In this document: piece after piece, positions 15,982 to 50,508 of the stretch
Position numbering within the stretch: the first letter of the stretch is position 1
Layout of the letters: every line of letters begins with the position of its first letter
From: an uncultured Chroococcidiopsis sp.
Lineage (GTDB): Bacteria > Cyanobacteriota > Cyanobacteriia > Cyanobacteriales > Chroococcidiopsidaceae
Direction of reading: 5' to 3'
NCBI GenBank assembly: GCA_964248365.1
Contig: CAXTYC010000027.1
Coordinates: forward strand, 8,623 to 72,622
Length of the DNA: 64,000 nt
Program-made: the position numbers and the translations under genes
Notes under the pieces: model-generated
What the model saw: only the letters and a program-made list of their open reading frames with translations
Told to the model about the DNA's origin: nothing
Database searches by the model: none

Positions 15982-16418
15982 TCACGTTACAAGTACTATA
16001 GCAATCCTGTTTGAGCTAAGAGCATCACCAGCATTTTCTCAAACAGGACGAATACCTTTTTTTGATGATAATCTGTTCTGGTTTTGGTTCTTAGGACAGC
16101 ACAGCGGTCTTTTACCAAATGTTTTAGAACATCCACTATCTTCAGTGGGATTGTTCTTACCAATTATTTTACGCTATCCTTGCCCTTTAACCTTTAACAT
16201 GAGTGCCGCCATGAGACCTCCTGCACACAAGACAAGAGGTTAATATAATAATTTTTCTTTCTTCTTCCTTTAGATGCTAAATTATCCTTCGTTCTTCTTA
16301 GCGGCTTTGCACGATTCTCCCCATTTAATTGTTTATTAAGAAATTCCTATAAATAAAAATATTCCCCTATATCAAAATAGGGGAAGCGATCACATATCAG
16401 TTATGATGATTGCCTGCA

Positions 16419-16520
16419 CTTTTCCGTCGTAAAAATAATGGCAGCCCTGTATTAGGGTTTACTAGTTCCGTGCGAGAGATCTTTGAAAGAGGGCTGCATT
16501 ATTTTTAGAGGTACACCGGA
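16419..16520. mobile_element. 102-bp hairpin element, copy 1, flanked by 8-bp direct repeat (1 mismatch)
   Basis: Ends shared with 54942-55043; tgcctgca at 16411-16418 and tgcctaca at 16521-16528. Confidence 0.75.
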
Positions 16521-16536
16521 TGCCTACAAGCTAGGG

Positions 16537-48840: not shown

Positions 48841-50508
48841 TTACAAAACTTTGCTGAGATATTGATGAACAAACTGCACACAAATTGAACCTTCACCTAC
48901 CCCAGAAGCAACTCGTTTGACTGAACCATGACGTACATCTCCGACTGCAAATACACCAGGAACATTTGTTTCTAATAAAAATGGATCGCGATCCAATGTC
49001 CATCCTTTTGGGCGATGACTATCGTGGTTTAGATCTGGTCCAGTTTTAATAAAGCCGCGTTCATCCCGCTCTACCACACCATCTAACCATTCGGTACGGG
49101 GGACAGCACCAATAAAGATAAATAGCGAAGTAGCGGGAACAATTTGGGTTTCGCCAGTTACCGCATTCTCAATAGCGATCGCCTCCAAACTTGTCTCACC
49201 TTTTGCCTCAACTACACTAGAATGTGTCTGAACAAGAATGTTTGGTGTATCTGCAATTTGGTCAATTAGATACTGTGACATACTCTTAGTCAGCGACTCG
49301 CCGCGTACCAACATCGTGACTTGACGAGCGTACTTAGAAAAGTACATCGCCGCTTGTCCAGCGGAATTTGCCCCACCGACGATATAAACATCTTCATCCT
49401 TACAAGATAGGGCTTCTGTTTGCGCTGCACCGTAGTAGACACCCGCCCCAGTTAAGTGATTAAGTCCAGGCACATTACTCAACCGTCGCCACGATACCCC
49501 AAGCCCTAAAATCAGGGCATGACAACTAATTTCTGTGCCGTTTGCTAGCTGGATAAAACGATATGGATCTTTGACACGAATGCCTGTAACTTCTTGCGGT
49601 GTGAGAATTTCCACCCCAAAACGTCTTGCTTGATCTACGGCACGTCTAGCTAAATCGCTTCCGCTTAAGCCAGAGGGAAAGCCTAGATAATTCTCAATGC
49701 GAGAGCTTGTTCCCGCTTGTCCGCCGGGGGCTTCCCGTTCAATCATGACGGTACTTAGCCCCTCGGAGGCTCCATATACCGCAGCTGCCAAACCCGCAGG
49801 GCCACCACCGACGATAATTAGGTCGTAAAATGGCTTATTAGCTTGTGTCCTAAGTCCAATTTTTTCAGCAACTTGGATATTTGTCGGTTGAAGTAGACTA
49901 GAACCGTCGGGCAAGAGAACTAAGGGTAAGCTTAAGCGATCGCAGTTGGCGTATGTAGCTAGCTGTTGTGCTTCTTCAGATAACTCGATATCTAGCCACT
50001 GATAAGGCACTTGATTTCGCGCTAGAAAGTCTTTAATTTGATGGGATTGGGGTGACCAGCGATTACCAATTACGCGAATACCTTCAAACGGTGGGCGGAA
50101 TTTCACCAGCCAGTCATCGAGCAAATCATCAAGTACGGGATATAACCGCTCTTCTGGCGGGTCCCAAGGCTTCATTAGATAGTAGTCGATTTGGGTGGTA
50201 TTAATGGCGCGGATCGCTGCATCAGTGTCTGCGTATGCTGTTAGTAATGCCCGTTTTGTGTCTGGGAACAGTTGCAAAGCCTGCTCTAGAAATTCTACAC
50301 CTGACATCTGTGGCATCCGCTGATCTACTAGAAACAGTGCCACTGGGTCATTACGGAGTTTCAATTGTTGCAATGCCTCCAGAGCGATCGCCCCTGACTC
50401 GGCTCGTAATACCCGAAAGCGATCGCCATATTCCCGCCGCAGATCTCGCGCTACTGCTTGCAAAACTTCTGGATCATCGTCAACTGTCATGATTACAGGT
50501 TTAGCCAT
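48841..50508 (-). CDS. Receiver domain / glutaredoxin-like / thioredoxin-reductase-like fusion
   Basis: VDDD, LVDQRMP, LTAY, MKP receiver motifs; GGGPAG, IENYLGFP, VGGANSA, FAVGDVR TrxB-family motifs. Confidence 0.92.
   Translation of the reverse strand: MAKPVIMTVDDDPEVLQAVARDLRREYGDRFRVLRAESGAIALEALQQLKLRNDPVALFLVDQRMPQMSGVEFLEQALQLFPDTKRALLTAYADTDAAIRAINTTQIDYYLMKPWDPPEERLYPVLDDLLDDWLVKFRPPFEGIRVIGNRWSPQSHQIKDFLARNQVPYQWLDIELSEEAQQLATYANCDRLSLPLVLLPDGSSLLQPTNIQVAEKIGLRTQANKPFYDLIIVGGGPAGLAAAVYGASEGLSTVMIEREAPGGQAGTSSRIENYLGFPSGLSGSDLARRAVDQARRFGVEILTPQEVTGIRVKDPYRFIQLANGTEISCHALILGLGVSWRRLSNVPGLNHLTGAGVYYGAAQTEALSCKDEDVYIVGGANSAGQAAMYFSKYARQVTMLVRGESLTKSMSQYLIDQIADTPNILVQTHSSVVEAKGETSLEAIAIENAVTGETQIVPATSLFIFIGAVPRTEWLDGVVERDERGFIKTGPDLNHDSHRPKGWTLDRDPFLLETNVPGVFAVGDVRHGSVKRVASGVGEGSICVQFVHQYLSKVL

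What the first reader, a model, noticed from the sequence alone, without database searches (positions are those of the whole stretch)
16411..16528. Candidate new family of fixed-length 102-bp insertion elements (copy 1; partner at 54942-55043)
Seen: two segments 38 kb apart are both exactly 102 bp. They share left ends (cttttccgtcgtaaaaata / gttgtccgtcttaaaaata, 16/19) and right ends (tatttttagaggtacaccgga / tatttttagaggtacatcggt, 19/21). Each is bounded by its own 8-bp direct repeat (here tgcctgca/tgcctaca). The two ends are not inverted copies of each other beyond the TAAAAATA/TATTTTTA core, unlike ordinary MITE TIRs. The interiors are unrelated in sequence, yet each extends the stem (here taaaaataatg-g-cagccct / agggctg-cattattttta), so structure and length are conserved rather than sequence. 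Inference: a non-autonomous element mobilised through a folded single-stranded DNA or RNA intermediate, or one carrying a variable cargo between fixed recognition ends. I do not recognise it as a named family.
Basis: partly seen in the sequence, partly recalled or inferred. Interest (0 to 1): 0.8.

Follow-up and report, generated by a model that had tools for sequence, protein, structure and literature searches.

The report
Mobile DNA hairpins with flipping cores
The two segments belong to a large family of roughly 110-base DNA hairpins in this cyanobacterium that have inserted into genes, transposons and each other, share a core that lies in either orientation between interchangeable pairs of ends, and likely move as folded single strands with an enzyme not yet found.

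Summary
The genome holds 26 paired copies with these ends (20 of them 110-115 bp). A related strain has copy 1's empty site: the insert is 110 bp and only TGCCT is repeated. Exact 8-bp repeats flank 4 of 25 copies. The interiors are homologous but flipped (9 forward, 10 reverse). The same ~76-bp core (A-tract stem with covarying arms, loop with two repeats 20-21 bp apart) occurs at 114 places, between at least 8 different end pairs. Copies nest in each other and split IS, intron and Tn554-like genes; 0-5 bases are shared at junctions. The core is in 3 of 27 family relatives and four metagenome contigs, and was not found elsewhere. No partner enzyme carries the ends (Y1/RAYT, IS607, IS110 loci checked). 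It works most like a REPIN but fails REP/RAYT membership. Likely mechanism: folded single strand, circular junction, insertion at look-alike sites; a DDE-type MITE is a close rival. This scan noted smaller (17-45 nt) nested hairpins elsewhere, not this family.

The parts
16415..16524 (+). Copy 1, inserted DNA, 110 bp (TGCAC...GGATGCC; the register can slide 5 bases, 16411-16520 to 16416-16525)
   Evidence: Empty allele in run X4 joins ...GATGAT to 16521; fold
16411..16415 (+). Shared junction repeat TGCCT, left copy (target side)
16521..16525 (+). Shared junction repeat TGCCT, right copy
16415..16430 (+). Left outer arm of copy 1 (class-1 arm, ...TTTTCCGTCGT)
16431..16447 (+). Left stem arm: A-tract plus variable, covarying stem
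16448..16490 (+). Loop in forward orientation, two degenerate ATCT-type direct repeats (AGATCT at 16477-16482)
16491..16506 (+). Right stem arm ending in the T-tract
16507..16524 (+). Right outer arm of copy 1 (AGAGGTACACCGGATGCC)
54938..55047 (+). Copy 2, 110 bp (CAGGG...GGTTTCC); boundaries inferred from the family, no empty allele seen
54954..55029 (-). Core module of copy 2, loop inverted relative to the outer arms
54934..54941 (+). TTCCCAGG left repeat: target TTCC plus the element's own start CAGG (inferred)
55044..55051 (+). TTCCCAGG right repeat: the element's own end TTCC plus target CAGG (inferred)

Best explanation
These are non-autonomous, roughly 110-bp mobile hairpin elements of one cyanobacterial lineage, each made of a shared invertible core between a class-specific pair of short ends, and they likely move as a folded single DNA strand whose ends are joined into a small circle and inserted, likely by a single-strand (HUH, TnpA/RAYT-like) nuclease acting in trans, at sites that resemble the element's own right end. 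Shown: family, empty sites, core shared by at least 8 end classes, flipping, nesting, 0-5 shared junction bases, head-to-tail junctions. Inferred: the single-strand or circular intermediate; an enzyme that reads the stem, A-tracts and phased loop repeats and cuts about 13-18 bases outside the A-tracts; strand switching within the fold as the source of flips and of matched stem changes. The enzyme is not identified.
For: Mobility: empty allele of copy 1; a class-1 copy splits PRFIP|EEVM of a Tn554-like tnpB whose homologue reads LPRYIPEEVM; other classes split IS1, IS5, IS630, IS701 and intron RT genes with inserts of 104-114 bp. No fixed duplication: shared bases are 5 (copy 1, C12), 3, 2, 1 and 0 at the resolved sites. 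Polarity: the class-1 right end is TTCCC in most copies whatever the left flank, and targets resemble it (own pairing 5.36 vs 4.71 shuffled, 10 of 5000). Three head-to-tail right-end|left-end junctions exist (C28, C40 twice), as a circle or rolling copy would give. Structure over sequence: 12 of 16 stem pairs show two-sided changes; arms 82% complementary within and 40% between copies. No RNA-strand bias in the stem. Flips: 9 forward, 10 reverse; an identical 76-bp core is flipped at the same site of two 92%-identical IS1 copies; loop centres also flip alone. REPINs are described as keeping length and hairpin capacity with compensatory changes, moved by RAYT (PMC3116915, passages); IS608-type enzymes cut at a target tetranucleotide and the last four bases of the right end (PMC6006769, passages).
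Against: No HUH gene carries these ends: the three RAYT-like genes of the genome have their own unrelated repeats and 30 Y1 loci of relatives gave no core match. The arms lack the GTAG or CGTC tag plus palindrome of a REP. In TA-class elements, near-identical copies carry the target's variable bases on both sides (TC...TC at C86; TAA, TTA, TCA in G014), which is what a staggered DDE cut and fill-in gives and HUH does not. Two IS605-type tnpA copies do lie 0.3-0.7 kb from core clusters, but in IS-rich regions and with other ends. No excised strand or circle was seen; only contigs were available.
Confidence: 0.35

Rival explanations
1. A superfamily of DDE-type MITEs. Each end class is an imperfect terminal inverted repeat read by a transposase in trans (IS630-like for the TA class), short 2-5 bp duplications are true target duplications, the fixed length and loop serve to bend the short element, and flips arise later between the long repeats.
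For: TA...TA flanks in class 2 with 106-bp inserts; target bases copied on both sides in TC and TNA cases; 13 of 25 class-1 copies read as an exact 5-bp repeat in one register (my reading); a symmetric element explains why loop orientation does not matter.
Against: Shared bases are 0-1 in three classes. About half of class-1 copies have a consensus right end that differs from the left flank. Terminal bases differ between and within classes while the interior is shared, the reverse of a DDE MITE. No IS in the assembly ends in these arms (ISAs1 shares only CAGGG).
Confidence: 0.25
2. A double-stranded circle integrated by a recombinase at a short core: IS607-type serine transposase, IS110/IS1111 recombinase, or a Tn916/Tn554-like tyrosine recombinase that carries coupling bases from site to site.
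For: IS607 elements have unrelated termini, a subterminal inverted repeat, phased internal direct repeats, a GG core and no duplication (PMC6188088, passages), which fits class 1 (CC) and the GG class. One-sided consensus junctions fit coupling sequences (Tn916 behaviour recalled). Head-to-tail junctions fit a circle.
Against: No IS607 tnpA in this assembly (0 matches) and it is present in non-carriers; 30 IS607-search loci show no core. IS110: only a fragment at a contig end here, 7 loci of carriers with one sub-threshold core match. No loop or stem complementarity to the copy's own target. Cores differ between classes.
Confidence: 0.2
3. Target-primed copying: a nicked or stalled target strand anneals by microhomology to a folded copy (DNA or RNA) and a polymerase or group II intron-type reverse transcriptase copies it, giving variable duplications, small deletions, mosaics and flips without a dedicated transposase.
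For: Junction overlap of 0-5 bases; apparent 2-3 base target loss in nested copies (C64) and possibly C90; all four left/right arm combinations among near-identical class-2 copies; several group II intron RT genes in carriers.
Against: Both ends are precise and lengths constant; no G-U bias in the stem; no transcript seen over copy 1 (run X2 has no cover there, which proves nothing); no such bacterial pathway is known to me.
Confidence: 0.15
4. Not mobile: bidirectional terminators or other regulatory hairpins that arose in place.
For: A-tract/stem/T-tract shape; copy 2 lies just after a thiO-like gene.
Against: Empty allele, split reading frames, nested stacks up to 1.3 kb, not found in 5 of 6 congeners.
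Confidence: 0.02

Closest known systems
REPINs with RAYT (Bertels and Rainey 2011, PMC3116915; Di Nocera 2013, PMC3733652; Quentin 2018, PMC6006769; passages read)
   Same: About 100-bp non-coding hairpin; length and folding kept with compensatory changes; patchy between close relatives; clusters and nests.
   Different: No GTAG/CGTC-tagged palindromic REP at either end; the two ends are not copies of each other; no RAYT gene flanked by the element; one core shared by many end classes; loop flips.
Prokaryotic MITEs, e.g. cyanobacterial Nezha (described in PMC3184786 and PMC10969869, passages read)
   Same: Short, non-coding, inverted repeats, filled and empty sites; the TA class looks like an IS630 MITE.
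   Different: Inverted repeat is subterminal and its sequence varies; termini differ; no constant duplication; no IS with matching ends found.
IS607 family ends (Chen 2018, PMC6188088, passages read)
   Same: Unrelated termini, subterminal inverted repeat, phased internal direct repeats, short core, no duplication.
   Different: No tnpA in this assembly; IS607 ends in relatives do not match; core is not always GG; 16-bp covarying stem.
Cyanobacterial small dispersed repeats, SDR
   Same: Small structured mobile repeats of cyanobacteria that nest and have no known transposase.
   Different: SDRs are recalled as a few tens of bases and reported from Nostocaceae; these are 104-115 bp and the core model found no convincing match in 150 phylum genomes.

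Membership tests
REPIN/RAYT | Long hairpin with conserved length and compensatory changes | tested here: met
REPIN/RAYT | Two inverted REPs, each GTAG- or CGTC-tagged with its own palindrome | tested here: not met
   Left arm holds CGTC but no palindrome follows; right arm differs
REPIN/RAYT | RAYT gene flanked by the repeats | tested here: not met
   Own RAYT-like genes have other repeats; 0 core matches in 30 Y1 loci of relatives; contigs under 2 kb are missing from the assembly
REPIN/RAYT | Single-strand cleavage by the HUH enzyme | not testable with these tools
   Needs protein and DNA in vitro
DDE MITE | Conserved terminal inverted repeats | tested here: not met
   Class-1 termini differ; repeat is subterminal and variable. 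Class 2 has imperfect terminal repeats
DDE MITE | Constant target-site duplication | tested here: inconclusive
   Not constant in class 1 or across classes (0-5); 2-3 bp duplication fits class 2
DDE MITE | Autonomous IS with the same ends | tested here: not met
   Arm scans of the genome find only cores, remnants or nested stacks; GTDB right-arm scan gave 2 chance hits
IS607 derivative | GG core, no duplication, phased internal repeats | tested here: inconclusive
   Fits class 1 and one other class; TA, A and no core in others
IS607 derivative | IS607 tnpA with matching ends | tested here: not met
IS110/IS1111 derivative | Recombinase element with the same subterminal repeats, guide complementary to the target | tested here: not met
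Cyanobacterial SDR or Anabaena MITE families | Sequence match to published family consensus | not testable with these tools
   Elhai 2008 and Wolk 2010 not held; indirect: no convincing core match in 150 phylum genomes
Rfam RNA family | Match at gathering score | tested here: not met
   Only a tRNA in the window

The most novel reading that the evidence does not exclude
A new kind of mobilisation: one undescribed enzyme reads the folded core (A-tract stem plus two helically phased loop repeats), cuts a set distance outside it whatever the terminal sequence, and pastes the rod where the target matches the element's own end. The ends would then be self-carried addresses: each end class evolves its own target, and flip-flop strand switching keeps the stem perfect while its sequence drifts.
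Probability: 0.25. Interest if true: 0.85.

Novelty: new variant of a known kind. Interest (0 to 1): 0.62.

Why it matters
Known miniature elements keep their ends and vary inside. Here the inside is shared, flips, and is flanked by many unrelated end pairs with different targets. If one enzyme serves them all, target choice is written in about 15 bases of the element's own end, which would be a compact, reprogrammable insertion system. The family also gives natural filled and empty alleles and flipped alleles with which to test how small bacterial hairpin repeats spread, an open question for REPs, REPINs and cyanobacterial small repeats.

Tried and rejected
Partner search: PF01797, PF02371 and PF01548, PF00589 (31, 32; the integrase near a copy is the Tn554-like tnpB that the copy splits), PF00239 and NF033518, PF04986 (96; nothing rang in the controls either, so uninformative). 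ORF lists around clusters and on small contigs showed IS, intron and host genes only (12, 44, 59; output of 28 and 59 was cut). Orphan arms that I read run into nested IS1, IS5 or IS630 copies. Guide-in-loop idea: own target no better than shuffled in three window sizes. Distribution: right arm in 0 of 40 relatives, 0 viral contigs, 2 chance hits in 185,579 species; loop pattern 2 single 3-mismatch hits in 60 relatives; class-2 arms 0 viral and 1 isolated hit in 400 phylum genomes; another arm 8 viral hits without a hairpin; plasmid and phage BLAST only chance or nothing; 22 of 26 metagenome hits were not elements. Empty sites in congeners for the two window copies: not alignable. Paralogue empty sites: 5 of 93 blocks, and 7 DNA alignments plus 1 protein match of 30 cases, of which C90 and L124 stayed ambiguous. 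Run X2 (guessed RNA) has no cover at copy 1. ISAs1 ends share only CAGGG (93). Paper searches showed no description of this family; that library lacks most subscription journals.

Full report
Setting. The window is part of contig C27 of a 5.58-Mb, 102-contig genome with 43% G+C and 5,556 HIP1 octamers and a psaB gene near copy 1, so a cyanobacterium. Copy 1 lies between two genes on the minus strand upstream of a peptidase-like gene; copy 2 lies just after a thiO-like gene. Rfam finds only a tRNA in the window.

Observation. A weight-matrix scan gave 33 left and 38 right ends (reversed-genome control 7 and 1) and 26 paired copies. Twenty are 110-115 bp, one is 51, and five are 158-1,297 bp because other copies are nested inside. 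One remnant has both arms with the whole stem-loop deleted (C26).

The interior is shared and flips. A loop-only profile from 78 other copies scores copy 1 on the plus strand and copy 2 on the minus strand, above all 1,000 shuffles each; the two loops compared alone are not significantly alike. Of 19 distinct standard copies 9 are forward and 10 reverse (two of the calls are close because the loop centre is itself flipped). In a metagenome an identical 76-bp core is flipped at the same site of two IS1 copies that are 92% alike. Run X4 also holds a copy-1-type stem joined to the opposite arm (loose end at 16430). In G014 and in some copies here the loop centre is inverted relative to the loop edges, so strands have crossed at several depths of the rod.

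The core. It is about 76 bp: an A-tract, a 10-bp variable stem, a 43-45 base loop, and the complementary arm. Twelve of 16 stem pairs show two-sided changes across 43 copies (copies were partly chosen as hairpins, so this leans upward). Among class-1 copies, chosen by their ends, the variable stem is 82% complementary within a copy and 40% across copies. Stem mismatches are G-T 26 and A-C 25, so neither strand is favoured as an RNA would be. The loop holds two ATCT-type direct repeats most often 20-21 bases apart.

A superfamily. A core profile finds 114 non-overlapping places, none in the reversed genome. Cores lie in HIP1-poor DNA (0.62 vs 1.01 per kb) and 38 of 93 blocks have multicopy flanks against 98 of 500 random sites; class 1 alone is weaker (0.84 per kb, 5 of 19). 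A covariance model finds 11, 22 and 2 matches in three relatives and none in the other 24 of 27 family genomes, and one weak, short match in 150 phylum genomes searched with stricter filters. A metagenome scan gave 26 hits, 4 of them true elements. The class-1 right arm was not found in 40 relatives, in viral contigs or in the species collection.

Junctions. Run X4, a relative about 90% alike at depth near 375, skips copy 1: GATGAT is joined to TGCCTACAAG, so 110 bp are inserted and TGCCT is shared. Another class-1 copy splits a Tn554-like tnpB at PRFIP|EEVM; a homologue reads LPRYIPEEVM, which by reading frame gives 113 bp with ATTCC shared. A third sits in IS1 (114 bp against a diverged paralogue; CCA shared by my reading of the frame). 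Other classes give 106 bp with TTA or TA, 106 with one base, 107 with none or one, 107 with GG and 108 with none. Exact repeats of 8 bases or more flank 4 of 25 class-1 copies; left and right junctions still covary more than shuffled pairs (5.36 vs 4.71, 10 of 5,000; three rows of that count caught off-register words). In about half the copies the right side is the consensus TTCCC while the left flank differs, so TTCC belongs to the element and targets resemble it. Three head-to-tail junctions show the right end joined to a left end. Against this reading, near-identical TA-class copies carry the target's variable bases on both sides (TC at C86; TAA, TTA, TCA in G014), as a true duplication would.

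Partner. None was found. RAYT-like genes have their own repeats. Sixty Y1 and IS607 loci of relatives gave no core match. IS607 tnpA is not in this assembly, IS110 is a fragment at a contig end, and the nearby integrase is a victim. Two IS605-type tnpA copies lie near core clusters but have other ends. The assembly lacks contigs under 2.1 kb, so a multicopy partner could be missing. The loop and stem show no complementarity to their own target.

Mechanism. Shown: insertion, nesting, shared invertible core, interchangeable ends, 0-5 shared bases, head-to-tail junctions. Inferred: an enzyme that reads the fold and phased repeats and cuts 13-18 bases outside the A-tracts, an end-joined intermediate, and insertion where the target resembles the right end. 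I put a single-strand HUH route at 0.35, a DDE MITE superfamily at 0.25, a serine, IS110 or tyrosine recombinase at 0.2 and target-primed copying at 0.15. That the element is real and mobile I hold at about 0.95.

Literature. I read passages, not whole texts, of PMC3116915, PMC3733652, PMC6006769, PMC6188088, PMC10969869, PMC11602168, PMC3184786 and PMC5861425, and no supplements; MITE catalogues in the supplements of PMC11602168 might list these copies. Elhai 2008 and Wolk 2010 were not held. Eight searches showed no account of this family. Tn916 coupling sequences, IS630 TA targets and SDR sizes are recalled. This scan's index has no look-alike sequence and lists smaller nested hairpins in other phyla.

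Verdict. A real, lineage-restricted superfamily of miniature mobile hairpins that works most like a REPIN but is not one by the defining tests. The architecture (shared flipping core, many ends) looks undescribed, the enzyme is unknown. New variant of a known kind; interest 0.62.

Noticed in passing
G000:C41:28700-30300 (L068), C40:6300-7200 (L001), C7:143300-144400 (L073), C58:3836-4388 (L076): Nested stacks of up to about ten cores of several end classes inserted into each other's stems and loops, 0.3-1.3 kb long.
   Followed up: partly
G000:C90:768-886 and C92:3258-3376; G005 L118 and L132; L187 and L189: Identical or near-identical elements at the same position of diverged paralogous IS5 or IS1 copies (flanks 86-92% alike): repeated targeting of one site or gene conversion.
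   Followed up: partly
G000:C37 (L065, L066): At least seven near-identical TA-class copies on one 50-kb island-like contig; left and right stem arms occur in all four combinations, and loop halves are mosaic.
   Followed up: partly
G000:C26 near 49127-49145 (minus strand); C50:19010-19066: A 32-bp remnant with both class-1 arms and no stem-loop, and a 51-bp copy with a minimal stem.
   Followed up: no
G000:C12:4598-8482 (L013, L250): Tn554-like tnpA-tnpB-tnpC element whose tnpB has a zinc-finger-rich N-terminal part and is broken by a stop and by a class-1 copy.
   Followed up: partly
L002:1850-2230, L004, L005: Three RAYT-like genes, each with its own flanking palindromic repeats unrelated to this family.
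   Followed up: no
G000:C4:94617 and C14:70048: A different two-copy hairpin (about 50-bp interior, GGAGCGG stem) picked up by the A-tract hairpin scan.
   Followed up: no
loop of the core, e.g. window 16477-16482: The loop repeats resemble GATCTNTT-type origin unwinding 13-mers and the AGATCT box (recalled); probably chance.
   Followed up: no
G014:C276:1289-2378 (L125, L244): Two copies of one class flank a short-chain dehydrogenase-like gene about 1 kb apart, a possible composite unit.
   Followed up: no
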